A DNA stretch of 64,000 nt from Cyanidioschyzon merolae (taxonomy: Eukaryota), in the NCBI GenBank assembly GCA_000091205.1, contig AP006496.2. The stretch is one strand, 5' to 3'. Made by a program: the position numbers and the translations under genes. Below are positions 2,690-49,575 of the stretch, one piece after another. A model generated the notes under the pieces. The model did no database searches. It saw nothing but the letters and a program-made list of their open reading frames with translations, and had not been told where the DNA came from. How positions within the stretch are numbered: position 1 is the first letter of the stretch; each line of letters starts with the position of its first letter.

Positions 2690-5150
2690 ACGTCTCCAAC
2701 TGACGTGCCGACGCCTCCGCGTCGATTTGGACCGGCCACCCACTACTGCTTTCAACTTCTTCTCATATAGTTCCACTTTGAGCGGTTATCCAACAAAGCC
2801 CTCTCGTGTCAACTCCGGGCGTCTTCGTTCCACCAGCGCATATCGCCTTAGATAGATAGCGGCGTCAAAGTCTCGGTTCACGAATTCCATCCGTTTCTTG
2901 CCATTGATTGCATACGCCAGTGCAAGCAATCCACGAACTTTTGCCCTCCTTTCCATTTGCTCCTCCGTCAGCGCTCGGTACTTTTTTATATTCTCAGGGC
3001 TCCGCTGACACTTTTCCATCTCCACTCTCTGAAGTGCACACCCCGGTTCGTGGTGTGTATACATTGTTCGGAACTCGTCTACAGGCATCGTAACAATACG
3101 CCGTGCGCACTCCTTGCACGCTCTCGTTGTTGGAGCTGGCGTAGTTCCTTTTTTGGACGCCCAGCGCCCTGCCGCATACGCTCCTACGAGCCTCTGACTC
3201 GCGTCCTATTTGAGGGCGCTCAACTCATTGAAAACGTTCGCGAATGCCCGCTGCCTCCCACAGTATAGATTCATTCGCAAACAATCACACCGGGGCTTGG
3301 TATACTCCTCCCACAGCGCATCCCAATGGGCAACATGAACTTCCATGAATTTCCGAAAAGCTCGAAAGTCCGCTCCCCGGCTCATGACCTCGCTCAAGGC
3401 TTCCAGGTGATCCTTCATTCCTGAATTCCAAGTCTCGATTTTCTTCCTTTTATCATTGTACCGGATTCGCGGTAGTATCTCGCTCGCGAGAATCTCAAGA
3501 GACGCATGTCTTTCTTACGTAAGTTACCGTCAGTACCGTCTTCCGCACGTCTGGGTGCAGCAATGGTGATGATATTCGTATTGCCAGGGTCCGCGCCAAC
3601 GACAAAGTCGTTATCCTGCACTTTCTGCGTGGCAGGATCCGCCTCCTTCTTTTCTTTCTCCTTCGTCATGTCAACGACAAGGTCGTTATCCTCCACCTCC
3701 TGCGTCGCAAGACCCGCCTCCTTCTTTTCTTCATGCTTCGTCGTGCCAACGACAAGGTCGTCATCCTGCATTTTCTGTGTCAAAGGATCCGCCTCCTTCT
3801 CATCTTCATCCTTCGCCACGTCAACGACAAAGTCGTTATCCTCCACCTCCTGCATCGCAGGATCCGACTCCTCCTTTTCTCCATCCTTCGTCACGGGCGC
3901 AGCCGAGGGCGGAACTGGCCGATCTTTCTTCAACCGCCGATAGTGTACACACAAGGCTACTCCATCGGTTTCGATCAACCCAGTGAATACCGTTTGCTTG
4001 CTCACTCTCAGACGTTTGAAATCGAAGATATTCTTCCAGTGGGTCTCCCGGTTTTCGCCGGAGAACTCCTCCCTGCTAACATCGAACTCGGGACTGATCT
4101 CTTTCATGCGGCGTCAAGGACTCTGGAGTCGATACTCACAAAATGTGACTTGAGGTTGCACACTGGAACGCCGTTGAAGCGCTTCCCCATTAGGACAGCC
4201 TTCCGTCTCTCCCACTCTTCATTTTTTCGCCTCTCAGCTTCATCTCCGCCTTGCGTTCGAGTTCTAGATCCAAAAACAAGAAATAGCGCAGAATGTGGCG
4301 ATACCATCTTTCCTTATCTTTTTTCAACTCTGATATCTTTTCTATTGGGTTCGCCAACCCCAGAACCGCACGGCGCTCTTGAATAGCCGCGCGGATTATA
4401 GAATCTTCATTCGTGCTCTCTTTTGACACCTTCTTGTCAACGAATTCGACCTCATTTTCACGCTTGCAATCGTTCGTGATGCCACTGATAATCACCCATT
4501 TTCCTTTGCGAGACAGGCCCGTGTAGAGCGCAAACACGGCGCGTATCATAAAACGTTCCAGGGTCATTGTAGAATGGTTCTTCAGATTCTTGAGGTATTT
4601 CATCGCTCCGTGTGTGTAAATATCCCGGTCACCCTTGTATCGAGTACCGTTGAAGCTCTAGAAGGGGTATGTTTTTGTGGAGGGCATGCACTAGCTCATT
4701 TTCCCGCCGCGCTTCCCCTGTACAAAGCGTCAGGCGTCGAATAAAGGTCATGTGGAAAAACCAGTCCGGAACCTCGCCTATTTTGATGTCCGTAACGTCA
4801 TCGTACATCTCCCTCGCCGCATGCATCAGTTCTAAAAAAGCCTTACGAACAGTCCTGGATTACAATTCGACACTGTTTCTGATGGCCTCTTGCAACTTTT
4901 GCCTGCACGGATCCTTGATGTGGCGTAGAAAACAGGCTTTCATCATCCTCTCATCTTACTGGTGTCTCACTTCTAGCTCCTTCTCGCCATGCCATGCCGT
5001 ACTCGTGCATGGAACAAGGCCCCCAGCGATTGTAGACGCTCCGAAAGCAGCATCGCGTGTTTCTAAGCATGTCAAGTTATGGCCTGGATCGCGTTTCCCA
5101 GCAACGGCGAGATGCGCGTTTTGTCCGGTTGTTGCCAGATCTCCAGGCGC
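2690..5150 (-). mobile_element. Fanzor/TnpB-like element copy F1 (degenerate; ORF broken into at least 5 pieces by frameshifts)
   Basis: Minus-strand ORF pieces 2786..3088 (RuvC-III NRDFDAAIY, RGLLAL), 3206..3418, 3415..4107 (Ruv[19 protein letters not shown] preceded by 4 x 25-aa acidic repeats), 4190..4603 and 4629..4826 (N-terminal domain) are collinear with the 750-aa consensus from copies F3/F5. The 3' noncoding tail is truncated relative to other copies. The 5' UTR motif ggatcgcgtttccc..gatctcc lies at 5085-5150. Confidence 0.7.
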
Positions 5151-5383
5151 CAAGAACAAGACACTTCGACGGACAGCGCATCGCAACGACGATTCCGCGC
5201 TCGATGCATCAACGGCGACGAGAACAGCAGCTGCGGCGGCGGCGGAGGCGGCGCGACGGCGACACAGCGCGATCGGCTCAGATGGTTAATACGAGCTGCA
5301 GGATCAATTCTGACAAGTTGAAGGGAACACTCTCTATCACCAATCACAGAGGCAAAACCCATAACAAGATAAAGTCTTAGTCA

Positions 5384-13698: not shown

Positions 13699-13920
13699 AC
13701 ACGAGCTAGAGAAACGTGATCCGCCAAGCGTGCAAAGTTAATCGACGCCACGAGCCTGCGCAGCGACGTTGCAAATAAGGCTTTTCGACTAAAAACAAAA
13801 ACAGGAAACGTATTATACAAGATATAGAAAAACAGAAGCCGACGGAGGGTGCACCGTCGACGTACCGAGCTCAAGATTCCAGCGCACGATCGCATCTCGC
13901 GAATCTTGTCACCACCGCCT

Positions 13921-15850
13921 ATCTAAAGACGCGTCGCCGGCGGTGCGCAGTACTGGTGGCGAACGCGCCTTAGACAAATCGTCTCCAACTGACGTGCCGA
14001 CGCCTCCGCGTCTATTTGGACCGGCCACCCACTACTGCTTTCAACTTCTTCTCATATAGTTCCACTTTGAGCGGTTATCCAACAAAGCCCTCTCGTGTCA
14101 ACTCCGGGCGTCTTCGTTCCACCAGCGCATATCGCCTTAGATAGATAGCGGCGTCAAAGTCTCGGTTCACGAATTCCATCCGTCTCTTGCCATTGATTGT
14201 ATACGCCAGTGCAAGCAATCCACGAACTTTTGCCCTCCTTTCCATTTGCTCCTCCGTCAGCGCTCGGTACTTTTTTATATTCTCAGGGCTCCGCTGACAC
14301 TTTTCCATCTCCACTCTCTGAAGTGCACACCCCGGTTCGTGGTGTGTATACATTGTTCGGAACTCGTCTACAGGCATCGTAACAATACGCCGTGCGCACT
14401 CCTTGCACGCTCTCTTTGTTGGAGATGGCGTCATTCCTTTTTTGGACGCCAAGCGCCCTGCCGCATACGCTCCTACGAGCCTCTGACTCGCGTCCTATTT
14501 GAGGGCGCTCAACTCATTGAAAACGTTCGCGAATGCCCGCTGCCTCCCACAGTATAGATTCATTCGCAAACAATCACACCGGGGCTTGGTATACTCCTCC
14601 CACAGCGCATCCCAATGGGCAACATGAACTTCCATGAATTTCCGAAAAGCTCGAAAGTCCGCTCCCCGGCTCATGACCTCGCTCAAGGCTTCCAGGTGAT
14701 CTTTCATTCCTGAATTCCAAGTCTCGATTTTCTTCCTTTTATCATTATACCGGATTCGCGGTAGTATCTCGCTCTCGAGAATCTCAAGAGACGCATGTCT
14801 TTCTTACGTAAGTTACCGTCAGTACCGTCTTCCGCACGTCTGGGTGCAGCAATGGTGATGATCTTCGTATTGCCAGGGTCCGCGCCAACGACAAAGTCGT
14901 TATCCTGCACTTTCTGCGTGGCAGGATCCGCCTCCTTCTTTTCTTCCTCCTTCGTCATGTCAACGACAAGGTCGTTATCCTCCACCTCCTGCGTCGCAAG
15001 ACCCGCCTCCTTCTCATCTTCCTGCTTCGACGCGCCATCGACAAGGTCGTTATGCTGCACTTTCTGTTCTGTGTGGCAGGATCCTCCTCAATGTTTTCTT
15101 CATCCTTCGTCACGGACGCAGCCGAGGGATGGACTGGCCGATCTTTCTTCAACCGCCGATAGTGTATACACAAGGCTACTCCATCGGTTTCGATCAACCC
15201 AGTGAATACCGTTTGCTTGCTCACTCTCAGACGTTTGGAATCGAAGATATTCTTCCAGTGGGTCTCCAGGTTTTCGCCGGTGAAGTCCTCCCTGCTAACA
15301 TCGAACTCGGGACTGATCTCTTTCATGCGGCGTCAAGGACTCTGGAGTCGATACTCACAAAATGTGACTTGAGGTTGCACATTGGAACGCCGTTGAAGCG
15401 CTTCCCCATTAGGAAATCCTTCCGTCTCTCCCACTCTTCATTTGCCTCTTCACTCAGCTTCATTTCTGCCTTGCGTTCGAGCTCTCGGTCCAGAAACGCG
15501 AGGTACCGCAGGACGAGGCGATAGTATCTTTCCTTATCTTCTTTCAACTCTGATATCTTGTCTGTCGAATCCGCCAACCCCAGAACCGCAGGGCGCTCTT
15601 GAATAGCCGCGCGGATTACAGAATCTTCATTCGTGCTCTCGTTTGACGACCTCTTGTCAAAGAATTCAATCTTATCTTCATGCTTACGATGGTTCGTGAT
15701 GCCGTTGATAATCGCCCATAGCCACTTGCAAGAGATACCCTGGGTACAGTGCAAACACGGCACGTATCATAAAACGCTCCAGGTTCACGATCATATGATT
15801 CTTCAGATTCGTGATGTGCGTACTCGGCCTGTCACAATTTACTCTGGCAT
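13921..15850 (-). mobile_element. Fanzor/TnpB-like element copy F2 (5'-truncated, multiple frameshifts)
   Basis: Minus-strand ORF pieces 14075..14452 (CxxC-like region, RGLLAL, NRDFDAAIY), 14495..14707, 14704..15060 ([17 protein letters not shown] with 3 acidic repeats), 14955..15326 and 15323..15763 are collinear with the F3/F5 protein. The conserved 3' tail is at 13921-14074. The N-terminal ~250 codons are missing, and the copy abuts a partial X/R2 repeat at ~15850. Confidence 0.7.
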
Positions 15851-16240
15851 TAAGAGCGGGCGGCCTGCGTCATGGCGTCGCCCTGGTCCTAACAGACTCC
15901 TAGCACGTCGCTTCACGCTGTTGCAGGCAGCAGATCTGGCTGCCCAGTTGTCAGGCTCCCAGAATGATTACGTATTCCGACTCCGTATCAGGTGAAACCT
16001 TCCTCGATACGACGCCCTCAGTGGTATCGCAAAGCCGTTCTGTGTCCGTTCAGCATTGGCATCAGCGCTACAGGCGCTTTCGCTGGAGCTCAAATCAGAC
16101 ACTCGGGGCACAACAGGACGTACAAAACTACCGGTGTATCCAAAATGATGCATTAGTAATGGGCTTTGATGGTAGATGCGTCATGATGGACGCTTTTTCG
16201 ACTACCAATATCCATCTCGCCGGCTGAGATCCCCGGTCAA
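15850..16240 (+). repeat. X(partial)+R2 short interspersed repeat, copy A
   Basis: 15911-16240 aligns by eye with 42313-42650, 54114-54448 and the reverse complement of 60600-60835. Shared strings: ctcccagaatga, cgacgccctcagtggta, gcaaagccgttctgt, gatggacgcttt..ccaatatccatc. Confidence 0.6.
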
Positions 16241-20016: not shown

Positions 20017-20244
20017 GTGCTGCACATTTGCGCGGCGCCGAAGGATCACCTGCAAACACGCTCGTTTCGTCAAGGCGTTCAGCATCTAGGTACTGCCGCA
20101 GCGACAACGTCATACGAACAGGTGTTTGGTGTGCTGCACATTTGCGCGGCGCCGAAGGATCACCTGCAAACACGCTCGTTTCGTCAAGGCGTTCAGCATC
20201 TAGGTACTGCCGCAGCGACAACGTCATACGAACAGGTGTTTGGT
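20017..20244. repeat. tandem direct duplication, 2 x 114 bp, preceded by a (CAG/AAG)n microsatellite at ~19975-20010
   Basis: tgctgcacatttgcgcggcgccgaaggatcacctgcaaacacgctcgtttcgtcaaggcgttcagcatctaggtactgccgcagcgacaacgtcatacgaacaggtgtttggt occurs twice back to back. The ORF-track peptide VLHICAAPKDHLQTRSFRQGVQHLGTAAATTSYEQVFG is duplicated accordingly. Confidence 0.85.
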
Positions 20245-20557: not shown

Positions 20558-23500
20558 TTACAGCCGCGACGGGCCATGTGTCGACGACGCGCTACTGAAC
20601 TGCACATCGGCAACGTCCTCCTCCAGCATCCATGGCTCCGCCTCGGCACGCAAACGCAGGAAAAGGTTCATCGCCTTCATTGCCTGTACATCGTCAACCG
20701 TTCCGAGTCCCAGATGACGCTCACCAACGACAACTGCCAGACACTGCGCCCGAGAGAGCGCCACATTCAAGCGTCGGGCGTCCAGGATGAAGGCAATACC
20801 CTCGTGGCTCGCGCGTGTGCGCATCTCAGCGTCGCCTCCAGATGCCGCGGTGCGATCCTGCTCGGGTGCGCAGAGACTCATTATGACAATGGGACGCTCT
20901 TGGCCCTGAAACTTATCGACGGTACCGATACGCGGTATATTGCTCGAAGCTGCATCTGCGCCCGTCTGTGGAGTGCGCGATGCAGCCCAGAGCGTAAAGG
21001 CAGTTTTCAGGGCATTCACCTGTTCGTTGTAGGGTGCCACAATCAGAATGTCGTCCACGGATACATGGCGCGGTGCCGCTGACTGCTCCGTTGCCGCCTG
21101 CGGACCGAGACGCAGTTCGAAGCGCGTCCCTTGCACCAGCATCGCAACCAGTCGCAGGACTGTAGCGACTTCCCGCTTCCAGCGCGAGCGCACGGTAGCA
21201 CTACCAGGGAACGTCGCTGTCGACGACGACGACGACGACGACACATCTACTGCGAGGAAGCCAAGCCCAGAGCGCGCTCGCCCCAGATGGTGATCCCAGA
21301 CCTGATGCTGCTCGGTACGGGCATGCCAGCGCAGCCGCCCCTGGTAAAAGGTCGTACCGATGAAGCGGCAGAGCTCAGGACAGAGGCGGTGCGTCGTCGG
21401 CAAGAACCAGCCCCAGGCGGGCCCAGCGACCGACGTGTCAGCTCCGAGCAGGTACGTCAGCGAAGACTCGCCACCGACGAGGGGTCGCCCGCTCGGCAGC
21501 AGCGAGTTATTCGCCGATACCGCCGCCAACTGCATCTGATCACCAACCAGCACCGCAGCACGCCGAACGTTCGGCAGCATGGCAACGAAATACGCTCGTG
21601 CCATCTGACCAGCTTCGTCTACGAAGAGGTAGTCGAGCCGCTCCCGCAGGTGCTCGTGTGAGAGCGCGAATGCCGTACCCGCGAGCACACTGAACGGGGG
21701 ATCCGCTTCCGACGACGTCGGCGCCATTCTCGGAACCCGAGTGGTTACGTGAACGGCGCCCGTCGGTAAACTGCACTGCTTGTGCTGGCCAATACGCCAA
21801 ATCAGCGCTGCGGTATGCGTACATCCGCGAATTCGAAGACGTTGCACCAGGGCGCCCAGTGCCTGGTCGATGGCCGCGTGGCTACTCGCACATACGCCAA
21901 TACAAAAGCGATGGCGACCAGTCGGCTGTGGCCCCAGCACCAGTTCCGCGATACACTCGGCGATGGTATGCGTTTTGCCGCAACCAGGCGGTCCCTGTAT
22001 CACCAGAACGCGCCCATCCGTGATCTGACGAAGCGATTCGACAACCTGTGGTACCTGCTCGGCAGTTCGAAAAGGTTCGTCAGACGCCACCAGAGAAGGA
22101 AATGGGCACTCGCGTCGCAAGTAGCGCGCAACCAGCGGTGTCTGTCGCGAGTGCATCGCTGCTGCACAGAGACCCAGAATGGACGACAGACGACGAAAGA
22201 AGGGCGGTCGTCGAACGATGCGCGGCAGACGCGTGCCCGCAGGGAGAAAGCGCTCGGCTGTCGCCCGGTCCACTTGAATGGATGCCGAATCGGGACCTGT
22301 GAACCGCAGACGCGCCAGCGGTACCATGAGGTAGCGCTCACCGATGAGCAAACAAGCCTGCCATTCGCCGGAATCCGAGTAGATTCGCTGCTCAGCGGGG
22401 AAGCATACGCGCAAGTTGACACGATCCGGTCGTGCGGGAGTCTCAGCGGGCGGACCGTTCATCGAAGATGCCTGCAGTTTTTTGCGCTGTGGGCGCGTCG
22501 CTTTCGATGCACTGGAATGCGTCGGCAGATCGGGCCCCTGATCCGCATACTGGACTCGAGGAGCGGCTCCTGGCGACCCAGACAGGTCACTGGATGCCTG
22601 CATCGTCGATATGGAACTGCCTTGGACATGCACGCCGCTCCCAGCCGACCCGTTGTCGTCGTGGTGCATACCCGCGATGCTGTCGACCGAGTCGCCACCC
22701 GCAACCCCCATCGGTTGTTCCAGTCGTGCTGGTGGTGTCAGCGCAGCGGATGGCGCTGTTTGGGATCGGGTTGTACTCGCCAGGCGCTCTGCAGCATCAA
22801 CGTCTCGTCCAGAGACGATAGATGTCTTTTGGGAGCTGGTACGTCGCCGCCGATCGCCAGCAGAGGCGTCGCTCGCGGACAAGGACGTTTCCGGGGACGC
22901 TGCATCCCAGTCAACTACGATCGCGTCCACAATCACATCAGGATGATCGTAGAGGTCGCGATCCAGCGCTACCTGCGGCCGCTGGCGCCATGCCAAATGC
23001 TGCAACTCTATTTTGGACTCTCGAAGGATGTAATCGACCAGATCCCGCATGGGATCATCGACCGGCAGCCGTTGCCGCACGTGCAGGGACAGCAGCATCG
23101 CGTCCCGCTCCGGTATCCCTGCAGCTCGTTCCGTGCGTAGCATCTCTATCATGGTAGCGTACGGTGTACTCGGCGCCACAGCGTGCCGAAATCGCGCAGA
23201 TCCCGAGGCATCCTCGTCGTTGTCCTCGTCGTCAGCATCACTATCACCACCATTACCACCAGCAGTAGCAGCAGCAGCAGCAGCACCAGCACCAGCATCG
23301 CTGCTGTTGACGTTCACGCAACGCCGCGCACCCGATTCCGATGATCCCGCAGCAGCACGCCACTCGCGGTGATCAGCGAGCTCCACATCTGAACCTGTTT
23401 GAACAGATTCGTTCGATAAGGTATCATTCGAATCCTGCGACGCTGCTGCTGCTGCTGATGCTGATGCTGATGCTGCCGATGATGATAAAAGCACTGGTGC

Positions 23501-25873
23501 ACGCATCCCAGCGCACGCAGCGCTGTAGACGTGGTCGTGCGTGCGCAGCCAGCCGGCGAGTGCGTGCAACGATCTGCAGATCGAGCCGCTCAGCGCCAGC
23601 AGGCGATTGCGCACGATACGCGCACGCTCAGCGTTGTTGTATCGACTGGCGATTCGATAGCGCTCATAGAGTTCTGTTGCTTCTGCTTGGGGCGCCATAA
23701 CTATAGTGCTGCAGGCGATAGCGCTACCACGAATGAGACTGTTCAGTGATCGCAAGTTGTACGGGTCGTGGTCACCGATGAGGAAGCTGGCCCGTACAAC
23801 CTGCCGCAAGTCGACTAGCGGTAACTGATCCACGGTTGCCTGCACGCCGGCATCGTGCGTCGCGAGCGCTACCTCCATCAGGGCGTGCCGATCCAGTTCG
23901 CCAAAGTGGTAGACGTGCAGCTGGGGATCCTCAAATAGCGCCGCGCGAACGTGGACCAGGAAACGCCGGAGGATGGATGTGGCTTCTTCTGGTGTGTATG
24001 CCCAGAAGGAGGTCGGCCGCGCGTACTGCCCCGGGCACCATATTCCGAGCAGAAAATACGAACCATCGTATGAAGTCATGTAGGCGATGTACATATCGTA
24101 AGGCGAAGCTGGTGGCAACAGTCGAGCAGGCTCGGCGTTCGCATGCGGCCGTGGCTCATAGGGCAGTCGGCTCGCATCGCCATGGCGATAACGCTGCAGT
24201 AAAAGGCGCGCTTGCAGCATGTACTCCGAAAGTCGCCATGGGGGAATGTCGGCAAGCTGGAGCTGCTCTGCGGCAGGCAGGCTCGCCAGCTGCTCGAGGT
24301 TGCGGAACCCTCTTTCCCATAACTGGCGCATGTCATGCAGGCGCATCTCGGTAACGAGCAACGGGCTCTGATGATAGCGCTCCAGGGCGCATGCTGCGTA
24401 GGCGTTCTGTGTGAGTCGGCGGCGGCACTCACGCATGGCAATGAGCATGTCCAAGCTGGAAGCGCTTTCCGCAATGCGCAGCGAAAGCTCCGCGAGGTTG
24501 GTCTTCAGTAGACGTGCGCCCTCACGACGAACCACGGACAGTAACTCCTCCAGTTTCGCTTCAAAGTAAAACGAGCAATCCGCTGTACGCCAACACTGAA
24601 CCTGCGCAACAACCGCATCCGATTCGCTGTCCAGACACAGATAGAAACGAGGCCAGTAGCCAAGGGTCTGCTCCTGACGTCGCTCCAAAGCCCGAACGAT
24701 CCACAGATACGCCATCGCCTGCATTGTAAACTGCGGCTGTGCTTTGCGAGCTAGTTTGCATTCAGCGACAGTGTAGCGGTACAGACGATATCGATCCCAC
24801 TGCGCCGCAGGTACGGAGGCAATCCAGCGCGCTTCAGGTGGTAGTGCAGTTGAGGGCAAACTGGCTTCTTCCCACGGATTCCACGGCGAGTCCGCAGGAC
24901 AGATTCCGCGCTGGTCGCCGAGCTGGACCCATTCTCGAACCAGCAAGTCACTGCGACCATGCAAGGTTCCGTGTTCAAGGGGCGCTTGCGCGATGATCGC
25001 AACCCCAGCTTCCATTGCTCGCAGCGTTTCCGCCACCGAGTGACAGCAGACAACCTCATGACCATGTTGTCGCAGCGCCTCAAGGAGCGTTTGCTCAAAC
25101 TCACGCCCACCCGCAATAAGGCCTTTCAAAATGGGCGCTCGGGGGCGTAAGCTCGACAAGCACGGCACCGACGCCTGCTGCGTCGAGTCCGACGGCGTGC
25201 CCCGCTGGAGGCGGCTTTGCAGGTACGCAGAGAGGCGAATCGCTCGATCCCAAGCGATGTCGCTGGGGTGCGCATTCGGCTCTTGCAAGACGAGACGTCT
25301 TGCATGGCGACGCTTGTATCCAAAACGAAAATTCATTACTCGATCTACGAGCATCATATGGAACTCGAAAGACGATTCGGTGAATCTGGCAAGCATCGTT
25401 GGTGGTAATGGCAGCAGCTGCTGCCACACGTCCGTGGACTCATCTCGCTGAATAGCTGGCGCGCCTGGCACGTCCGGAGGTGCTTCCGCTGCTGGAAGCG
25501 GCTCCTCTGGCGCCGACGCTTCCAGGCTAGCCACCAGTCGTATGCAGGACCCAGTAGCAGCACCTTTCCTACGTACAGATCGCACGAGCGATAAACTGGA
25601 CTTCTCAGGCGCCCTGTCCAGGCACTGCCTCCAAAGAAGCAGAACCGAATCGTTCCTACGGCGACGACACAGAGTGGCGTGACACCTGCCGCTGCTGTCG
25701 GAGGTGCCAAGTGTGCAGAAGATGAAGCCGCTCTGGCGGCTTGCAGACGAACTGCGGGGCGGAGCTCCGCTTCCGCGCACAGGCGCGACTGCTAGCAGCG
25801 GGATCCATCCGTCGTCTTTGCCTCCGAAAGACTCGATTAGAGACGAGTGAAGGGAGGAGGTCGCCATGGTCAA
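20558..25873 (-). CDS. large superfamily-1 DNA/RNA helicase, Upf1/Sen1/DNA2-like (AAA_11/AAA_12 type), with ~1200-aa uncharacterised N-terminal region
   Basis: 1771-aa uninterrupted ORF. The C-terminal third carries motif I VLVIQGPPGCGKTHTI, motif II YLFVDEAGQ, VLVGDQMQLAAV, motif V GTVDKFQGQERPIVIMSL and motif VI ARRLNVALSRAQCLAVVVGE. The N-terminal region has acidic/Ala/Ser low-complexity inserts encoded by trinucleotide repeats at ~21222-21242 and ~23221-23300. Confidence 0.8.
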   Translation of the reverse strand: MTMATSSLHSSLIESFGGKDDGWIPLLAVAPVRGSGAPPRSSSASRQSGFIFCTLGTSDSSGRCHATLCRRRRNDSVLLLWRQCLDRAPEKSSLSLVRSVRRKGAATGSCIRLVASLEASAPEEPLPAAEAPPDVPGAPAIQRDESTDVWQQLLPLPPTMLARFTESSFEFHMMLVDRVMNFRFGYKRRHARRLVLQEPNAHPSDIAWDRAIRLSAYLQSRLQRGTPSDSTQQASVPCLSSLRPRAPILKGLIAGGREFEQTLLEALRQHGHEVVCCHSVAETLRAMEAGVAIIAQAPLEHGTLHGRSDLLVREWVQLGDQRGICPADSPWNPWEEASLPSTALPPEARWIASVPAAQWDRYRLYRYTVAECKLARKAQPQFTMQAMAYLWIVRALERRQEQTLGYWPRFYLCLDSESDAVVAQVQCWRTADCSFYFEAKLEELLSVVRREGARLLKTNLAELSLRIAESASSLDMLIAMRECRRRLTQNAYAACALERYHQSPLLVTEMRLHDMRQLWERGFRNLEQLASLPAAEQLQLADIPPWRLSEYMLQARLLLQRYRHGDASRLPYEPRPHANAEPARLLPPASPYDMYIAYMTSYDGSYFLLGIWCPGQYARPTSFWAYTPEEATSILRRFLVHVRAALFEDPQLHVYHFGELDRHALMEVALATHDAGVQATVDQLPLVDLRQVVRASFLIGDHDPYNLRSLNSLIRGSAIACSTIVMAPQAEATELYERYRIASRYNNAERARIVRNRLLALSGSICRSLHALAGWLRTHDHVYSAACAGMRAPVLLSSSAASASASAAAAASQDSNDTLSNESVQTGSDVELADHREWRAAAGSSESGARRCVNVNSSDAGAGAAAAAATAGGNGGDSDADDEDNDEDASGSARFRHAVAPSTPYATMIEMLRTERAAGIPERDAMLLSLHVRQRLPVDDPMRDLVDYILRESKIELQHLAWRQRPQVALDRDLYDHPDVIVDAIVVDWDAASPETSLSASDASAGDRRRRTSSQKTSIVSGRDVDAAERLASTTRSQTAPSAALTPPARLEQPMGVAGGDSVDSIAGMHHDDNGSAGSGVHVQGSSISTMQASSDLSGSPGAAPRVQYADQGPDLPTHSSASKATRPQRKKLQASSMNGPPAETPARPDRVNLRVCFPAEQRIYSDSGEWQACLLIGERYLMVPLARLRFTGPDSASIQVDRATAERFLPAGTRLPRIVRRPPFFRRLSSILGLCAAAMHSRQTPLVARYLRRECPFPSLVASDEPFRTAEQVPQVVESLRQITDGRVLVIQGPPGCGKTHTIAECIAELVLGPQPTGRHRFCIGVCASSHAAIDQALGALVQRLRIRGCTHTAALIWRIGQHKQCSLPTGAVHVTTRVPRMAPTSSEADPPFSVLAGTAFALSHEHLRERLDYLFVDEAGQMARAYFVAMLPNVRRAAVLVGDQMQLAAVSANNSLLPSGRPLVGGESSLTYLLGADTSVAGPAWGWFLPTTHRLCPELCRFIGTTFYQGRLRWHARTEQHQVWDHHLGRARSGLGFLAVDVSSSSSSSTATFPGSATVRSRWKREVATVLRLVAMLVQGTRFELRLGPQAATEQSAAPRHVSVDDILIVAPYNEQVNALKTAFTLWAASRTPQTGADAASSNIPRIGTVDKFQGQERPIVIMSLCAPEQDRTAASGGDAEMRTRASHEGIAFILDARRLNVALSRAQCLAVVVGERHLGLGTVDDVQAMKAMNLFLRLRAEAEPWMLEEDVADVQFSSASSTHGPSRL

Positions 25874-25907
25874 ACGCGTGCCCGCTTGAGACGACCCGCA
25901 CCATCAA

Positions 25908-26000
25908 CGCCGCTCGAAAGTCGAACGGCGCCAACGGTGTACAGTAGTGGCGGCAACCGCGCCCTAGACGAGACGTCTCCAACGGGCGTGCAGACGCCTC
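25908..26000 (-). ncRNA. candidate omega-RNA (fRNA) scaffold region of copy F3: the conserved 3' end of the ORF plus the noncoding tail
   Basis: Sense sequence after the stop, ...ctagggcgcggttgccgccactactgtacaccgttggcgccgttcgactttcgagcggcg, is conserved with copies F2, F4 and F5 and then diverges exactly at the element end. No structure or expression evidence is available. Confidence 0.25.
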
Positions 26001-28318
26001 CCAGTTTGTTTGAACCGGAAACCCACTACTGCTTCCAACTTCTTCTCATATTGTCCCACTTTAAGAGGTTGTCCAAGAAAATTCTCTCGTGTCCACTCTG
26101 GAGGTCTTTTCTCCAGGACCGCACATTTCCTTGTATTGATGGCGGCATTCAAATCTCGGTTCACAAACTCCATCCGTTTCTTCCCATTGGTAGTTGTACT
26201 TCCTAGTGCACCTAGTCCTCGCACTTTCACTCTCCTTTCCATTTGCTCTTCCGTCAGCGGTCCGTACTTTTTCATATCCTCAGGGCTCCGTTGGCACGTT
26301 TCCATCTCGACCCTCTGAAGTATACACCCCAGTTCATGGTATGTATAGGACGTTCGGAACTCACCTACAGGTAGTGTAACAAACCGGTGTGCGCACTCCT
26401 TGTACGTTCTTGTCGTTGGAGCTGGTGTACACAATTTTTGGGTCTTCCATCGCCCCGCCCCATACGCTGCTACGAGCCTCTGACTTTCATCCTCCTTCAG
26501 GGCGCTCAACTGATTGAAAAAGTTGGCAAACGCCCGCTGCTTCCCACAATACAAATTCATTCGGAAACGAGCCCACCGGGGCTTGGTATACTCCTCCCAC
26601 GGCGCATCCCAATGGGCAACATGAACTTTCATGAATTTCCGAAAAGCTTCAAAGTCCGCTCCTCGGCTCGCCACCTCGCTCAAAGCTTCTAGGTCATCCT
26701 TCATTCCTGAATTCCGGCTCTCGATTTTCTCCCTCGCATTCATTATACCCGATTCTCGATTGTATCTCGCTATCGAGAACCTCAATAGACGCATGTCTTT
26801 CCGACGTAAACTACCGTCAGTACCATCTTCCGCACACTTCGGTGCTGCGATGGTGATGATATTTGTGTTTCCGGGGTCCGCGCCAACGACAAAGTCGTTA
26901 TCGTGCACTTTCTACGTCACAGGGCCCGCCTCCTTCTTTTCTTCATGCATCACCGCGTCAACGACAAGCACGTTATCCTCCACCTCCTGCGTCTCAGGAC
27001 CCGCCTGCTTCTTTTCTTCATGCATCGCCGCGTTAACGACAAGGTCGTTATGTTGCACTTTCTGTGTGGCAGGATCCGCCTCCTCCTTTTCTTTATCCAT
27101 TGTCACGGGCACACCCGAGGGCGGGACTAAACGATCTGCCTTCAAACGCCGATTGTGTACTCACGTGGCTACTCCATCAGTTTCGATCAACCCAGTAAAT
27201 ACCGTTTGCTTGCTCACTCTCAGACGTTTGAAATCGAAGATATTCTTCCAGTACGTCTCCCGGTTTTCGCCGGAGAGTTCCTCACTGTTGAAATTAAACT
27301 CGGGACTGATCTCCTTCATGATGCCGTAAAGGACGCCTGAATCGATACTCACCAAATGTGACTTGAGGTTGCACATTGGAACACCGTTGAAGCGCTTCCC
27401 CATTAGGAAAGCCTTCCGTCTCCCCCACTCTTCAGTGTTTTCCTCACTCAGCTTTATCTCCGCCTTGCGTCCAAGTTCTAGATCCAGAAACAAGAAATAG
27501 CGAAGAATGAGGCGATAGTGTCTTTCCTTATCTTTTTTCAACTCTGATATCTTTTCTGCTGGACTCGGCAGCCCCAGTACCCCACGGCGCTCTTGAATAG
27601 CCGCACGGATGACAGAAGTTTTACACCTTCTCCTGCGTGACGCCTTCTCTCCGACGAATTCGATCTCATCTTCATGCTTGTGATCGTTCGTGATGCCATT
27701 GATAATCGACCATACTCCTTTGCGAGACAGGCCCGGGTACAGCGCAAACACGGCGCGTATCATGAAACGTTCGAGGTTCATCGTCAAATGGTTCCTCAGG
27801 TTCGTGAGGTAATTCATTGCCCCGTGTTCGTAAATATCCCGGTTACCAATGTATCGAGTGCCCTCGAAGCGGAATTCCGCGAAGTTTTCGTGGAGGGCGT
27901 GTACCCGCTCATTTTCCCTCCGCGTTTCCCTTGCGCCGAGCATCAAGTGACGAACAAAGATATTGTCGAAAAACTCGTCTGGAATCTCGACTGTTTCCAT
28001 GTGCGTCACATCGCGATACATCTCCCTCGCCATACGCATCAGTCCTGAAGACGCCCTGACAATACTCTTGGAGTACGAATCGAGACGTTTTTTGATAGCG
28101 TCTCGCAACTTTTCCCTGTACGGATCCTTGATATGTTCAAGAAGACCGGCTTTCACCACCATATCGTCGTACAGTTGTCTTTCTTTCCGCCTTCGACGTA
28201 GGGCCTCTCCCCTTTGCTTCTTCTTCTCTTCCTTTTCTACTCGACTCGGCACTGTTTTTTGTTTTTTTCTAGCAGCCGGCGACCCTGGGCCTCCAGGATC
28301 GTCGACTTGCTTTTTCAT
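25964..28318 (-). pseudogene. Fanzor1-like TnpB-family RuvC nuclease gene of copy F3 (about 750 codons, 2 frameshifts)
   Basis: N-terminus is basic (KKQKTVPSRVEKEEKKKQRGEALRRRRKERQ). RuvC-I is [17 protein letters not shown] (D at 26878-26876). The Zn-finger-like region is YKECAHRFVTLPVGEFRTSYTYHELGCILQRVEMETCQRSPE. RGLGAL follows. RuvC-III is FVNRDLNAAINTRKC (D at 26155-26153). Confidence 0.7.
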
Positions 28319-28572
28319 AGGTTTCCTTTTTTTTTAGTTTTTTGAAAAAGAACGCTCTTTGAACCCTTATGTAATATACTGCGAACAAACACTTGACTAG
28401 ACTTATTTGAGGGTGAAACACAAATGAACTCAAAAACTGTACTTTGCTACGACTTTAACGCAAATAAAACTTGTACAGTAGAGCAGTGCGCTCCTGATCA
28501 GGATCGCGTTTCCCTTCAATGGCGACATGCGCGTCGTGTCAGGTGACTGCCTGATCTCCCGGGTGCGCTCAC

Positions 28573-29150
28573 CGAGCGCGATTTTTAGAATGGACAAAAC
28601 GTTTCCTTGTGCCAGCGTTCTCCGATTGTGCGCATTTTTCTTTTCTTTCTCTCTTTTTGTGTTTTTTTCAGTGCGCGGTGAGGTATCCATCAACCCCCTA
28701 CCTCCATGTTACATTACCGATACTTCATCGCGGATATTCTGGTCGTTTCATACGTCCTATGATGTGTGCCTAGTACCTGCCGTGCCGTACCCGCCTTTGG
28801 ACCTTAACAGCTGGGGCAGATAGTTCATAGAGACAGAACGGCTTTTCCATACCACAGAGGGCGCCGGCTCGAGGCGTGGTTTACCCGACGTAGAATTGGG
28901 TGTCGCCGTCAGTTTGTGCTCAGACAGTCTGCGGATGCAGGTTTGTCTTCGCTGCACGAAACGCTGGAGACACTTGGCTGTTAGGATATATCGTGGGAGC
29001 CGCCTCTCTCTTTCGTGATCATGCATGGAATGCGTTGTTGTCGGTTGGCAATGTGGCTTCGTGCTTGACACCCACCCACCACTGTGGGTAGGCGCAGAAA
29101 GCACTGGGCCCGTGTGCGCATCCGATTCGCTAGACCTTCCGCCTAGAAGG
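28573..29150 (+). repeat. R3 interspersed repeat (~590 bp), copy 1
   Basis: Near-identical by eye to 48990-49575. The first ~150 bp (gccagcgttctccgattgtgcgc..polypyrimidine..cagtgcgcggtgaggtatccatcaaccccctacc) are also at 60420-60600. Confidence 0.7.
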
Positions 29151-30386
29151 TAGCATGTGAGTTTCTTCGCCACTAATGAGCGCTGAGGCTCGGTTAGCGG
29201 ACCATAAGTTGCCAGTGCTACACTCAGAGTGAGTGTCCGGTCTTCGACTATCACGATGATGCCCAGCTGCTGGTGTCCTCCAAGGAGCTCGCTGCGCTCC
29301 TGCTTCCAGCGCGGGCACTGTAAGCCTAAATATGTCAGCGTCTCGGGGATCTCGTCTCGACAGCAGGGACAGTGTGATTCCCAGTGCGATTCCAGTGTTC
29401 CTATACGGCTTAGAGACGGTGCTGGTAGCCAGAAGCCACCAACGCGGATTTTGGCGAGCCACTGGGTACCTCGAGCAAGTCCCGGGAATTCCAGCGCCTC
29501 CTACCAGTGCCTGCATGTGTATGCTAGGTTGTAGTTCCGGTATAGAGTCAAGCCGGCGTTAAGGGCGCGACTGGTACCGTGTCTACGTTCCCATATTGTT
29601 GTTTGGACCGTTCGCTTCAGGCGGTGGGAGCCTTCTACATTTCTGGGGAACGATTCGAGCGCATTTTCGCCTAAGAGGCGCTTCAACCAAATATGCGTCC
29701 ATTTCATCCTTCTTGCGACGCACCTACCGGTACCGAGTACGTCTCGAGCCTCGTACGCGCTACCGCGGCATATGCCGACCTGCCTCTCTCTCTTCAGTGC
29801 AGAGCGGAGGACTCGACGCTGGACCTCTTAACGACACCGAAAGGCGCTGCTGTTGCTTCTGGGGAAGCACCCGCGACTATCCGTCCAACGGTCCGTACCA
29901 GAGACGTTTGGCACTAGCCCCTAGCGCACTGACAGCTTCGTGCTGCTTGCCGGGTTCGTTATTCGGGCTGCCGAGCGTTTCGGGACGGTAGTCACAGCGA
30001 GCGCCTCCGCTGAGGCAGTTTCACGCTCTTGGGGAAGGGGCGCGCACTTTGCAGGTCGCCAACGTGTCCAGCGTCAAGCCCAACGACTGAACTGCCGTCG
30101 ACTGAGTCGCACACGTACACATGCTCACTGGGACATCAGCGCCTTTCGCCGCTTTGGACTGAGGCTTTGGCGGCGTTTACTACCCGAGTCGGAGAAAAGT
30201 GCGGCGGGTCCGTGAATACTGGGCGGTTTATTGCAGCACTTGACCAGGGAGAAGGGTTGCAGTGAACAGCAGCACGCTACGACTACTGCGCAAAGCTGTT
30301 CGCGCGCGTCTGGTAGCGCTTCCAAGTTGTGTCGAGCGCAGCATAGGCACGAAGCAACGACCCCAAAACGGACGCCCTGAACCTGC

Positions 30387-30701
30387 ATGGAGTCTGAAGA
30401 CGAGCTTCTGCCGAGCGTCCCCGCGGTACTGGTGGACGAGTCGAGCCCCGGCGCGTTCGCGGAACTGGCGAACGAGAAGGCGCGCCTCGAGTCTCGGAGA
30501 GCGCTGCTTCAGCGAGAACTGGAACGACTACAGGCGCCTGTCCTTCAACAAAGCCCCTACTACAGAGAACGTAGAGCTTGTTGCTTGAGAATGCTGGAGA
30601 TCATTGACGTGAGCATCGCACAACTGGATTCTGGGATGCACGCGCCAGCAGCGTTGAATGCTGAACTGGAGACCCTGTTTCAGAGCTTGCATATCGACTG
30701 A
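30387..30701 (+). CDS. hypothetical small coiled-coil protein (104 aa), speculative
   Basis: ORF with heptad-like LLQRELERLQAPVL..LETLFQSL. No family recognised. Confidence 0.15.
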   Translation: MESEDELLPSVPAVLVDESSPGAFAELANEKARLESRRALLQRELERLQAPVLQQSPYYRERRACCLRMLEIIDVSIAQLDSGMHAPAALNAELETLFQSLHID

Positions 30702-42029: not shown

Positions 42030-42650
42030 GAACAGAAACTAACCATTCACTATCAACTCGATAACAATTTCTTCCCTGCTCTACCGTACACGTTTACAAG
42101 GGGAAAAGATTTCCGTATTTTCGAAAGCTTTCCTTCTAAGCGGAAGGTCCCGCGAGCCGGACGAGTCTGATGGGCTCGTGCTCCGTGCACCTCTGAAGTG
42201 CCCGGTGCTATAGTGAGGCCTGAACAGCTCCTCCGCAACGCACTATATTCTGGGACCAGGAGCAGGTAGGATGCATCCAGGTGTCGCCATAATCACAGAG
42301 GTCTCCGGGAATATCGCTTCGCGCTGTCGCAGGAAGTAGGCCTGTCTGCGCAGTTTGCAGACCCCCAGAATGCTGACAAGTCTGAATTCCGTATCGGATG
42401 AACCAAGCATCAAACCGACGCCCTGAGTGGTATGGCAAAGCCGTTCTGTCTCCGTGCAGCATCTGCTTCAACGGCATACGCGCGATTGCGGATGCAGCAA
42501 GACAGGTACCCGGCGCACGATCGAGCGTACATAACGACCGGTACATCCGAGAGGAACTATGGATCAGGGAACTTGCAAGTAGGTTGCAGCATGAAGGATG
42601 CTTTCTCGGTAACCAATATCCATCCCACAATCTGCGATCCATGGTCCAAG
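42030..42650 (+). repeat. X + R2 composite short repeat, copy B
   Basis: 42030-42312 (X: aacagaaactaaccatt...cccgcgagccggacgagt...) matches 53815-54113. 42313-42650 (R2) matches copies A, C and D. Confidence 0.65.
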
Positions 42651-48989: not shown

Positions 48990-49575
48990 TAAATATATCA
49001 TTAGGTATCTATATGCCACCACAGCAGCACGTTCGGATTTTTTCGCTGACAAAACGTTTACTTCGGCCAGCGTTCTCCGATTAAGCGCATTTGTTTCTTA
49101 CTTTTTTTGTGGTTTTTTTCAGTGGGCGGTAAGGTGTCCATCAAACCCCCGACCTCCAAGTTACATTGCCGATACCTCTTCTCGGATATTCCGGTCGTTT
49201 CATACGTCCCATCGGGTGTGCCTAGTGCCTGCCGTTCCGTATCCGCCTTTGGACCTTAAATGCTAGAGCAGATAGTTCATAGAGCTAGAACAGCTTTTCT
49301 ATACCCGAGAGGACGTCGGCTCGAGGCGTGCTTCACCCAACGTAGAATCGGGTCTCGTCGTCAGTTTGTGCTCGGACAGTCTGCGGATGCAGGCTTGCCT
49401 TCGCTGCACGACACGCTGGAGAAACTTGGCTGTTAGGATGAATGCTGGGAGCCGCCTCTCTCCTTCGTGATCATGCATGGAATGCGTTGTTGTCGGTTGG
49501 CAATGCGGGTTTGTGCTTGACACCCACCACAGTGGGTAGGCGCAGAAAGCGCACTGGCCCCGTATGCGTATCCGA
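48990..49575 (+). repeat. R3 interspersed repeat, copy 2 (no adjacent Fanzor gene)
   Basis: Aligns along its full length with 28573-29150. It lies ~280 bp upstream of the start of the minus-strand Dim1-like gene. Confidence 0.7.

What the first reader, a model, noticed from the sequence alone, without database searches (positions are those of the whole stretch)
25871..25963. Fanzor copy F3 ends about 35 bp upstream of the start codon of the 1771-aa SF1 helicase gene
The F3 3' boundary is at ~25908 and the helicase ATG is at 25873-25871 on the same (minus) strand. The whole 2.7-kb element therefore sits in what must have been the helicase promoter, and the element's 3' tail and read-through transcription point into the helicase gene.

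The helicase either uses an element-derived promoter or a TSS inside the element, or it is transcriptionally compromised.
Basis: partly seen in the sequence, partly recalled or inferred. Interest (0 to 1): 0.5.

Follow-up and report, generated by a model that had tools for sequence, protein, structure and literature searches.

The report
Fanzor transposon tail abuts helicase start
A dead copy of a known red-alga transposon (a Fanzor1 element) ends 28-38 bases before the start codon of a still-functional helicase gene. In a sample of 34 other insertion sites of the same family, most copies sit in the same position and orientation in front of host genes, which suggests the host genes depend on transcription coming from the element.

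Summary
The window is Cyanidioschyzon merolae 10D chromosome 14.

**The junction**
- F3 is a roughly 3.26-kb copy (25896-29152, minus strand) of the known "WSV repeat"/CMe-1A Fanzor1 element.
- Its reading frame carries two in-frame stops, so it is a pseudogene.
- Its conserved 3' end is GGCGTT (25906), followed by a subfamily extension to 25896.
- Positions 25873-25871 are TTG, not ATG. The first ATG is at 25867-25865 and matches the annotated 1769-aa protein BAM81168.
- The unique spacer is therefore 28-38 nt.

**Position of the insertion**
- Synteny with Cyanidiococcus shows an ancestral divergent intergenic region of about 550 bp.
- F3 lies between that region and the ATG.

**State of the helicase**
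- The helicase, including its N-terminal extension, evolves 4-5 times more slowly than F3. It is therefore not a decaying gene.

**New result**
- Among 34 independent insertion sites of this family, the next host gene downstream is co-oriented in 28 (p=2e-4).
- In 17 of the 34, that gene's first ATG lies within 65 nt of the element end.

**Interpretation**
- The element's 3' tail folds into two hairpins, like the scaffold of a Fanzor guide RNA (ωRNA).
- The tail probably supplies or passes on the transcription that the downstream gene needs.
- No transcript data were available, and the tail shows no extra conservation after insertion.

The parts
25896..29152 (-). Full F3 copy of the C. merolae Fanzor1 element ('WSV repeat' / CMe-1A), about 3.26 kb
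   Evidence: The 3' end is defined by a 36-copy alignment and an identity drop from 0.74 to 0.29. Homology to other copies on the 5' side reaches at least 28930 in 24-37 loci. The 5' module 28593-29152 is 86.5% identical to a solo copy at 49048-49602. Size and lack of terminal inverted repeats match PMC3627910 and PMC1955436.
25964..28318 (-). Fanzor1 pseudogene: one frame of 785 codons broken by TGA (27163-27161, Cys in other copies) and TAG (26914-26912, Gln in other copies). RuvC motifs GADPG, EFRTS and NRDLNAAIN are present.
   Evidence: Both stops are shared by the orthologous copy in L005. A family profile hits solved Fanzor1 structures 9cf0, 8gkh and 9cer.
25906..25963 (-). Non-coding 3' tail of the element. 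Hairpin 1 spans the stop codon (25966-25945). The single-stranded conserved block CGCCACTACTGTACAC lies at 25952-25937. A terminal 11-bp hairpin lies at 25931-25907. The tail ends in GGCGTT. It resembles an ωRNA scaffold.
   Evidence: F3 tail folds at -26.9 kcal/mol, z=-2.2. About 30 of 36 copies form the terminal hairpin, through two different stem sequences. The conserved block is found only in element copies. The layout parallels the SpuFz1 ωRNA described in PMC10432273.
25896..25905 (-). Subfamily-specific terminal extension GATGGTGCGG. The true 3' end of F3-type copies is probably 25896.
   Evidence: Shared with L080, L012, L057, L009 and L030-type copies whose flanks otherwise differ.
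25868..25895 (-). Unique 28-nt spacer, the host 5' leader (GTCGTCTCAAGCGGGCACGCGTTTGACC). By analogy with SpuFz1, its first 14-21 nt would be the guide portion of an ωRNA read out of F3.
   Evidence: No homology to other copies. There are 0 differences in 28 nt against L005 and L001. Across orthologous pairs, spacers differ at 2/274 sites against 55/1348 for the tails.
20558..25867 (-). Host gene BAM81168.1: a 1769-aa protein with a RecB-like nuclease region and an SF1 helicase region (AAA_11/AAA_12). The start codon is ATG 25867-25865.
   Evidence: Pfam hits. Orthologues and bacterial TM0106-family homologues. Annotated length 1769 aa. Substitution rate 0.4% against 2.0% in F3.
25400..25867 (-). 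Poorly conserved N-terminal extension of the helicase (codons 1-156), rich in Ser, Arg and Ala. It may be a targeting peptide.
   Evidence: The frame is open in three species. There is conserved coding sequence just upstream of M157. It has 3/468 substitutions. GC content is flat across codon positions, which is a point against coding.
30387..30701 (+). Small conserved gene (104 aa) transcribed divergently from the helicase. It marks the far side of the ancestral shared promoter region.
   Evidence: tblastx to the L002 109-aa gene and to L003. The exact protein P0225 occurs on 70 contigs but carries no NCBI accession.

Best explanation
The interval is the junction between the non-coding 3' tail of a long-dead Fanzor1 transposon copy and the 5' leader of a functional host gene.

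Shown:
- F3 belongs to the known roughly 3.2-kb C. merolae repeat family. Its nuclease gene is inactivated.
- Its tail keeps the family's two-hairpin terminus.
- It was inserted between the helicase start codon and the ancestral divergent promoter region of about 550 bp, leaving 28-38 nt of host leader.
- The helicase remains under purifying selection.
- The same geometry recurs at most of the sampled independent insertion sites of the family: the 3' end points into a co-oriented host gene, often only 5-65 nt from its ATG.

Inferred:
- The original promoter is now at least 3.2 kb away.
- Antisense insertions at such positions are rare.
- The downstream gene therefore most likely depends on transcription that starts in, or runs through, the element's 3' end. 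In an active element this is the same outward transcription that would produce the ωRNA, whose guide is the flanking host sequence.
- Insertions that do not supply this transcription would have been removed by selection. That would account for the orientation bias.
- A preference for integrating into the 5' leaders of genes would account for the position bias.
For: - Identity of the element: the window is C. merolae 10D chromosome 14. The repeat family is described in PMC1955436 and PMC3627910. The family profile hits Fanzor1 structures at E=3.6e-19, 1.5e-12 and 1.1e-6.
- Pseudogene status.
- Sharp 3' boundary.
- Tail hairpins in about 30 of 36 copies, with two alternative stems.
- Ancestral divergent intergenic region of 552 bp, against 4519 bp in the window.
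- Helicase constrained: 16/3892 substitutions against 47/2355 in F3, p=3e-9.
- M1 is the start codon.
- Family pattern: 28 of 34 sites co-oriented (p=2e-4), and 17 of 34 with the ATG within 65 nt (p<=1.7e-11 for uniform insertion into 930-bp intergenic regions).; the intergenic size comes from PMC9812998.
- The downstream ORFs are real genes. They include E2 (domain begins at aa 12, ATG 18 nt from GGCGTT), CysRS (29 nt), PTH2 in the window behind F5 (51 nt), ATP synthase beta, PGM and others.
- Nozaki et al. report that the repeats are transcribed.
Against: - No transcript, TSS or small-RNA data could be examined, so the central step is inference.
- In nine orthologous pairs, the last 150 nt of the element are not more conserved than the body (4.1% against 3.6%, or 1.4% without two recombinant pairs). 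The host spacer is conserved (0.7%). A tail acting as a promoter for essential genes might be expected to show constraint. Metagenome assembly at repeat edges may also inflate tail divergence.
- About half of the repeats carry the repressive mark H3K27me3 and are poorly expressed (PMC5405695). This argues against strong read-through from the element's own promoter.
- F3 is full of stops, so a read-through mRNA would carry a leader of about 3 kb with many upstream ORFs.
- The sample is 34 sites from metagenomes of related strains, not the full 253 copies of the 10D genome.
- Distances use the first ATG of the ORF. This was verified by domain position for only a few genes.
Confidence: 0.55

Rival explanations
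1. The element is only tolerated at this position. Transcription of the helicase, and of the other downstream genes, starts in the short conserved host spacer or at the very start of the coding region. It would be driven by open chromatin or downstream elements, not by element sequence. The position bias would reflect integration into nucleosome-free 5' ends of genes.
For: Spacers are as conserved as coding sequence (2/274) while the tails are not (55/1348, p=0.003). The 28-nt F3 spacer is identical in three strains. H3K27me3-marked genes are reported not to lie near repeats, so silencing does not appear to spread.
Against: In some cases only about 5-15 nt separate the element end from a verified start codon (E2 in L079, CysRS in L072). 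That leaves no room for upstream core-promoter sequence outside the element. This model also does not explain the 28:6 orientation bias, because an antisense element at the same site would be equally tolerated.
Confidence: 0.25
2. The true helicase start is the conserved Met157 (25399). The 468 nt between F3 and that codon would then hold a normal promoter and leader.
For: Strong similarity to orthologues and bacterial homologues begins near residue 147. GC content by codon position is flat in codons 1-156, as in non-coding DNA. A prokaryotic gene caller started P0003 at the equivalent Met.
Against: Ten residues upstream of M157 are conserved in three species with synonymous codon differences. 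The frame is open for 150-200 codons upstream in all three. The extension has 3/468 substitutions against 59/2736 in F3 (p=0.03). The curated annotation uses M1. This model cannot explain the E2 or CysRS cases.
Confidence: 0.07
3. The insertion has silenced or crippled the helicase, which is on its way to becoming a pseudogene.
For: The original promoter region is displaced by at least 3.2 kb. Half of the repeats carry a repressive mark.
Against: An intact frame of 1769 codons. A substitution rate 4-5 times lower than the adjacent pseudogene over the same period. dN/dS of about 0.4 on few changes. The insertion predates the split of three strains. Essential genes such as ATP synthase beta and CysRS share this arrangement.
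Confidence: 0.05
4. The element is removed from the host pre-mRNA as an intron in the 5' leader. The displaced upstream promoter would then still serve the gene.
For: One subfamily ends in TGTTTCCAG|GGG, which looks like a splice acceptor (F5, L006, L046, L083).
Against: F3-type ends (GATGGTGCGG) have no terminal AG. No conserved donor was seen at the variable 5' ends. C. merolae has very few introns (0.5% of genes).
Confidence: 0.03

Closest known systems
C. merolae 'novel interspersed repetitive element' (WSV486-like; Nozaki 2007), also called the CMe-1A Fanzor1 element (Bao & Jurka 2013)
   Same: Same organism and same family. Size about 3-3.2 kb, no terminal inverted repeats, no recognisable target duplication, copies about 75-85% identical, a 5' module that also exists alone (TE-N2_CMe-like), and a mostly broken ORF.
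   Different: The published descriptions say the copies are distributed randomly. They do not mention orientation or proximity to host start codons. Here 28 of 34 sites are co-oriented with the next gene, and half lie within 65 nt of its ATG.
Spizellomyces punctatus Fanzor1 (SpuFz1) locus and its ωRNA
   Same: Homologous protein (8gkh, E=1.5e-12 with the family profile). [quoted passage not shown]
   Different: SpuFz1 elements have 30-nt inverted repeats, and the ωRNA has been sequenced. Here there are no inverted repeats, the RNA has not been observed, the F3 protein is dead, and no Rfam family matches.
Transposons that donate outward promoters or 5' leaders to neighbouring genes (bacterial IS elements with outward promoters; eukaryotic LTR- or TE-derived promoters)
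   Same: A mobile element sits directly upstream of, and in the same direction as, a host gene that remains functional although its own promoter has been displaced.
   Different: No TSS has been mapped. The tail shows no conservation after insertion. Promoter activity has never been reported for a Fanzor element. This comparison rests on general knowledge, not on a test.
Transposons that target 5' ends of genes (P element, Tf1, Mu, mPing-type MITEs)
   Same: Strong enrichment of insertions in the first tens of bases upstream of coding regions.
   Different: To my knowledge those elements generally show little orientation bias, and their transposases are known. Here the transposase is unknown and the orientation bias is 28:6.
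IS200/IS605 and Helitron ends (subterminal hairpins, no inverted repeats, no target duplication, strand-specific integration)
   Same: A 10-11-bp hairpin ends 0-2 nt before the conserved terminus. There are no inverted repeats or target duplications. The element encodes a TnpB-type nuclease.
   Different: No Y1 or HUH transposase or Rep/helicase was found in the element. The hairpin may act in RNA (ωRNA) rather than in DNA. This was not tested.

Membership tests
Fanzor1 (eukaryotic TnpB-like RNA-guided nuclease) | Sequence homology to experimentally characterised Fanzor1 proteins | tested here: met
   A profile of 45 family members (including P0020, 69% identical to F3) hits Parasitella Fz1 9cf0 (E=3.6e-19), SpuFz1 8gkh (1.5e-12) and Guillardia Fz1 9cer (1.1e-6). 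Single-sequence searches with F3 found nothing.
Fanzor1 (eukaryotic TnpB-like RNA-guided nuclease) | Split RuvC motifs with catalytic Asp, Glu and Asp | tested here: met
   F3 has [15 protein letters not shown] and NRDLNAAIN. The corresponding columns D484, E656 and D725 are invariant in alignment A6.
Fanzor1 (eukaryotic TnpB-like RNA-guided nuclease) | Zinc-finger / TNB domain after the Glu motif | tested here: inconclusive
   8 of 45 family members hit Pfam PF07282 (best E=2e-8), but P0020 does not. The C. merolae copies keep only two Cys in this region, judged by eye.
Fanzor1 (eukaryotic TnpB-like RNA-guided nuclease) | Intact ORF capable of encoding the nuclease | tested here: not met
   There are two in-frame stops in F3, shared with the L005 orthologue. 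All five window copies are broken. F3 is a pseudogene of the family, not a working member.
Fanzor1 (eukaryotic TnpB-like RNA-guided nuclease) | ωRNA encoded at the 3' end, with a conserved scaffold followed by a flank-derived guide | tested here: inconclusive
   A conserved two-hairpin tail ends exactly where homology stops. RNAalifold on the MAFFT alignment gave no consensus structure because the two stem variants are in different register. No RNA data were available.
Fanzor1 (eukaryotic TnpB-like RNA-guided nuclease) | RNA-guided DNA cleavage | not testable with these tools
   This needs biochemistry.
C. merolae WSV repeat / CMe-1A element | About 3-3.2 kb, many diverged copies (about 80% identical), no terminal inverted repeats, 5' module shared with a separate short element | tested here: met
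   compared with PMC3627910 and PMC1955436. The organism was confirmed by exact protein matches.
TE-derived promoter / 5' leader of a host gene | Host transcripts that start within the element, or that require it | not testable with these tools
   The only contigs reached (look-up for the PTH2 gene behind F5) were metagenome DNA assemblies, not transcripts. The evidence is indirect: promoter displacement, constraint on the gene and orientation bias.
RecB-like nuclease + SF1 helicase (bacterial TM0106-family relatives), for the host gene | C-terminal AAA_11/AAA_12 helicase core, plus N-terminal similarity to TM0106-type proteins | tested here: met
   Pfam AAA_12 at 7.6e-26 and AAA_11 at 2.2e-17. 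Bacterial homologues named TM0106-family RecB-like nuclease at E down to 1e-42.

The most novel reading that the evidence does not exclude
Fanzor1 elements of Cyanidioschyzon may be integrated into, or retained in, the 5' leaders of host genes in the sense orientation as a rule. Each copy's flank-derived ωRNA guide would then correspond to the leader and start-codon region of a host gene, often an essential one.

Two consequences would follow. First, the element acts as a mobile supplier of transcription for the gene behind it. Second, an active nuclease loaded with such a guide would cut element-free alleles at an essential gene's start, which favours repair from the occupied allele. That is a homing-drive logic not yet described for a eukaryotic TnpB relative.

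A mechanistic variant is strand-specific integration into single-stranded DNA exposed at promoter-proximal transcription bubbles. This would fit the hairpin ends and would explain position and orientation together.
Probability: 0.2. Interest if true: 0.85.

Novelty: new variant of a known kind. Interest (0 to 1): 0.55.

Why it matters
How Fanzor elements live in eukaryotic genomes is largely unknown. Their transposition mechanism, the way the ωRNA is transcribed, and their effect on host genes are all open questions.

If most copies in a well-studied, transformable model alga sit just upstream of co-oriented host genes, three questions become directly testable in C. merolae:
- whether the right end of a Fanzor element drives outward transcription;
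- whether host genes have come to depend on it;
- whether guide sequences are systematically host 5' leaders.

It would also revise the published statement that these repeats, about 5-13% of the genome, are randomly distributed.

For this locus alone the consequence is modest: one conserved helicase gene whose promoter was displaced by an old insertion, yet which is still maintained.

Tried and rejected
- **Single-sequence searches.** F3 ORFs against Pfam and PDB gave nothing. A profile of close relatives against PDB also gave nothing. Only the wider profile from the 1.84-billion-protein search worked.
- **AlphaFold model.** The model of P0020 built from a shallow alignment was unusable (pLDDT 33), so no fold search was run.
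- **RNA family and structure searches.** RNAalifold on the 36-copy tail alignment predicted no pairs. Rfam found nothing in the window.
- **Bacterial promoter/terminator scan.** It is irrelevant for a eukaryote, and it was empty.
- **Exact look-ups.** Look-ups of the helicase and SOD failed, although the helicase is in the collection as P0289.
- **Transcript-derived contigs.** A look-up for the PTH2 gene behind F5 found only metagenome DNA.
- **Orientation of genes at the 5' end of elements.** Too few loci had enough flank.
- **Exact 5' boundary and target duplication.** The 5' ends fall into at least two classes, and no duplication was seen.
- **Intron hypothesis.** Considered and judged unlikely.
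- **L001 as an insertion-free comparator.** It carries the same junction. Its different 5' half and upstream gene indicate recombination between copies or a chimeric contig.
- **Post-insertion constraint on the tail.** Tested as support for promoter function. No such constraint was found.
Full report
**Source of the window.** Eight ORF products of the window are exact matches to proteins of Cyanidioschyzon merolae strain 10D on a record of 852,727 bp (BAM81161/CMN016C through BAM81175/CMN035C and BAM81176). The window is therefore part of chromosome 14 of this finished red-alga genome. The helicase is BAM81168.1/XP_005537204.1, annotated as a 1769-aa 'hypothetical protein, conserved'.

**The observation.** On the minus strand the sequence reads ...GTCTAGGGCGCGGTTGCCGCCACTACTGTACACCGTTGGCGCCGTTCGACTTTCGAGCGGCGTTGATGGTGCGGGTCGTCTCAAGCGGGCACGCGTTTGACCATGGCG....
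- Positions 25873-25871 are TTG. The first ATG is 25867-25865.
- The ORF listing reports a TTG start only because it accepts bacterial alternative starts.
- Translation shows an in-frame TGA at 25906-25904, so the helicase frame opens inside the element's terminus.

**The repeat copies in the window.**
- The window holds five large copies of one repeat. F1 is at about 2640-5300, F2 at about 13910-16000, F3, and F4 at about 51293-54000, all on the minus strand. F5 is at about 54300-56925 on the plus strand. There are also fragments.
- With 80 further loci from hot-spring metagenomes, I collected 36 distinct insertion sites that carry the canonical 3' terminus.
- All share ...TTCGACTTTCGAxCGGCGTT, which ends at 25906 in F3.
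- F3 and related copies share ten more bases (GATGGTGCGG, to 25896). Other subfamilies carry different short extensions, such as TGTTTCCAGGGG or CGCTAGCAGCGG.
- Mean pairwise identity is 0.74-0.84 inside the element and 0.29 in the following 50 nt.

**What the element is.**
- F3 has one reading frame of 785 codons (28318-25964). It is interrupted by TGA and TAG at positions where other copies have Cys and Gln. All five window copies are broken.
- Single-sequence searches gave no family.
- A profile search of 1.84 billion representative proteins found 2470 relatives of about 600-700 aa.
- A profile of 45 of these hits the solved Fanzor1 proteins of Parasitella (E=3.6e-19), Spizellomyces (1.5e-12) and Guillardia (1.1e-6). 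Eight members match the Cas12f1-like TNB domain.
- The RuvC Asp, Glu and Asp columns are invariant and present in F3.
- The literature already knows this family. Nozaki et al. 2007 describe 253 copies of a 3.2-kb interspersed element with a WSV486-like truncated ORF, 'distributed randomly' and transcribed. Bao and Jurka 2013 name it CMe-1A, a Fanzor1 element of about 3 kb without inverted repeats, whose 5' 635 bp also exist as a separate element.
- Consistent with that, homology on the 5' side of F3 reaches at least 28930 in most copies. The block 28593-29152 recurs alone at 49048-49602. F3 therefore spans about 25896-29152.

**The tail.**
- Between the stop codon (TAG, 25966-25964) and the end lie about 60-70 nt. 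In about 30 of 36 copies these fold into a hairpin at the stop codon and a terminal hairpin of 8-11 bp that ends 0-2 nt before GGCGTT.
- Two different stem sequences (GCGTCGTTCGA/TCGAACGGCGT and AACGTTTTTC/GAAAGRCGTT) give the same hairpin in a shifted register.
- A MAFFT-based consensus fold finds nothing for that reason. Rfam has no match.
- By that analogy, the guide of an ωRNA read from F3 would be the first part of the 28-nt spacer, which is the helicase leader. This is an analogy. No RNA was observed.

**Where F3 was inserted.**
- Gene order Cse1, small gene, helicase, SOD, photolyase is conserved in Cyanidiococcus yangmingshanensis (L002) and another relative (L003/L004).
- In those relatives the helicase and a small gene of about 105 aa are divergent neighbours separated by about 530-550 bp.
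- The same small gene is at window 30387-30701. The two start codons are now 4519 bp apart, and F3 fills the 3.26 kb next to the helicase.
- Cho et al. 2023 report that mean intergenic length is 930 bp in Cyanidiococcus and 1890 bp in C. merolae, because of repeat expansion.
- The ancestral promoter region is therefore displaced by at least 3.2 kb.

**Is M1 the real start?**
- Strong similarity to orthologues begins near residue 147, and a Met at 157 is conserved.
- There is no Met between 1 and 157.
- The ten residues before M157 (W-x-Q-L-L-P-L-x-P-T) are conserved in three species with synonymous codon differences.
- The frame is open 150-200 codons upstream in all three.
- The extension differs from a close strain at 3/468 sites, against 59/2736 for F3 (p=0.03).
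- GC content by codon position is flat in the extension. This is a point against coding, but it is also expected for a peptide rich in Ser, Arg and Ala.
- I conclude that M1 is the start, as annotated.

**Is the helicase still in use?**
- L005, an independent assembly, is collinear with window 30909-21976 at 98.7% identity.
- Substitution rates between L005 and the window are shown below.

| Region | Substitution rate |
|---|---|
| F3 ORF | 2.0% |
| F3 5' region | 3.1% |
| Upstream flank | 1.0% |
| Helicase N-terminal extension | 0.6% |
| Rest of helicase | 0.4% |
| 28-nt spacer | 0/28 |

- Helicase against F3 ORF gives p=3e-9.
- The L005 copy shares both F3 stop codons. The element was therefore already dead when these strains split, while the helicase has been maintained since.
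- L001 has the identical junction, but a different 5' half of the element and a different upstream gene. This indicates recombination between copies or a chimeric contig.

**The family-wide pattern.**
- For 34 distinct sites with at least 1 kb of flank, I took the nearest non-nested ORF of at least 120 aa downstream of the 3' end. It is co-oriented with the element in 28 sites and opposite in 6 (p=2e-4).
- In 17 sites the first ATG lies 15-65 nt after GGCGTT.
- With uniform insertion into 930-bp intergenic regions, about 3.5-7% would be expected (p<=1.7e-11).
- Pfam confirms that the ORFs are real genes: PTH2, carboxyltransferase, phosphoglucomutase, cysteinyl-tRNA synthetase, Rpr2, a methyltransferase, ATP synthase beta, an AP endonuclease, a ubiquitin-conjugating enzyme and a transporter.
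- For the E2 enzyme the domain starts at residue 12, and the ATG is 18 nt from GGCGTT. That is only 5 nt after a 12-nt extension shared with another copy.
- For CysRS the domain starts at residue 27, and the ATG is 29 nt away.
- In the window itself, F5 ends 51 nt before PTH2 (56960) and F2 ends 246 nt before the phosphate transporter gene. F4 faces the 3' end of a gene.
- The F3-helicase geometry is thus typical of the sampled insertion sites. This contrasts with the published description of a random distribution.

**Mechanism.**
- Start codons sit a few to a few tens of bases from the element, and the old promoter lies kilobases away. Essential genes must therefore be transcribed from within or through the element, or from the tiny spacer.
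- The orientation bias is what selection would produce if only sense insertions deliver transcription to the gene behind them.
- The position bias suggests integration into 5' leaders.
- I therefore favour element-dependent transcription, either a TSS in the tail or read-through. In an active copy this would be the same outward transcription that makes the ωRNA.
- Three observations weigh against this. In nine orthologous pairs the last 150 nt of the element are no better conserved than its body (4.1% against 3.6%, or 1.4% without two recombinant pairs), whereas spacers are conserved (0.7%). About half of the repeats carry H3K27me3 and are weakly expressed. A read-through RNA from F3 would have a long leader full of stop codons.
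- The main rival is initiation in the conserved spacer, with the element merely tolerated. That rival does not explain the orientation bias or the 5-15-nt spacers.
- No transcript data were reachable. The only contigs found, in a look-up for the PTH2 gene behind F5, were DNA assemblies.

**Verdict.**
Promoter displacement is shown, 'compromised' is unlikely, and an element-derived TSS is plausible but untested.
- The element and the gene are both known. The new result is the recurrent position of this Fanzor1 family directly upstream of host genes, in the same orientation. It deserves a genome-wide count and 5'-end mapping.

Noticed in passing
window 30387-30701 (+): A 104-aa ORF is conserved in Cyanidiococcus (annotated there as a 109-aa gene) and in L003. 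It occurs as an exact protein on 70 metagenome or Logan contigs but carries no NCBI accession for C. merolae 10D. It is probably an unannotated small gene.
   Followed up: partly
window 51293-56925: F4 (minus strand) and F5 (plus strand) lie head to head. Their 5' ends are about 300 bp apart and their 3' ends point outward. F5 points into PTH2 and F4 points toward the 3' end of CMN035C.
   Followed up: partly
window 2640-4150 and 13930-15370: F1 and F2 are 93-98% identical over their 3' 1.1-1.5 kb, whereas other copy pairs are 70-85% identical. Their constant spacing is 11,289 bp. This suggests a recent duplication or gene conversion. F1 has lost the canonical 3' terminus.
   Followed up: no
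window 26915-27100 (also 3590-3900, 14880-15110): A 75-nt unit just upstream of the RuvC-I motif (…EKKEAxPATQKVxDNDxVV…) is tandemly repeated, with a different copy number in different copies. The L001/F3 homology breakpoint (about 27096) falls in it.
   Followed up: partly
window 20017-20244: A perfect tandem duplication of 114 bp lies in the convergent intergenic region between the SOD gene and the 3' end of the helicase.
   Followed up: no
window 49048-49602; also 60469-60754, 42394-42583, 54181-54380: There are solo copies or fragments of the element's 5' module (TE-N2_CMe-like). The first is 86.5% identical to 28593-29152. The 5' ends of the family fall into at least two sequence classes.
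   Followed up: partly
L001 1-5386 versus window: Metagenome contig L001 has the F3-helicase junction. Its element 5' half is only 80% identical to F3, and a cupin gene plus another Fanzor copy lie upstream. This indicates either ectopic recombination between copies or an assembly chimera. L005 supports the window arrangement.
   Followed up: yes
L038 versus L065 (orthologous copies), last 150 nt of the element: There are 14 differences in the 150-nt tail but none in the preceding 750 nt, clustered around the first hairpin. Several other orthologous pairs also show faster change in the tail than in the body. The cause may be gene conversion, local hypermutation or an assembly artefact at repeat edges.
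   Followed up: no
window 25964-25966: The F3 stop codon TAG is TTG in L001 and L005. This extends the dead ORF to the TGA at 25906-25904, which lies inside the terminal hairpin region.
   Followed up: yes
homologues P0020-P0041; L086-L088: The precomputed Pfam hit on these proteins is PF26935 (DUF8286). That family of unknown function therefore corresponds to part of a Fanzor1 protein.
   Followed up: partly
window 20558-25867 (-): Outside the Cyanidiales, the closest relatives of the host protein are bacterial TM0106-family RecB-like nucleases fused to an SF1 helicase (about 1100 aa, 30% identity). The algal proteins add an N-terminal extension of about 150 aa and long low-complexity inserts. 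This may reflect a bacterial origin and organelle targeting.
   Followed up: no
whole window: Fanzor-element sequence makes up roughly a quarter of this 64-kb window. Published genome-wide repeat figures are about 5% for these elements and 12.7% for all repeats. No tRNA or other Rfam family reaches threshold in the window.
   Followed up: no
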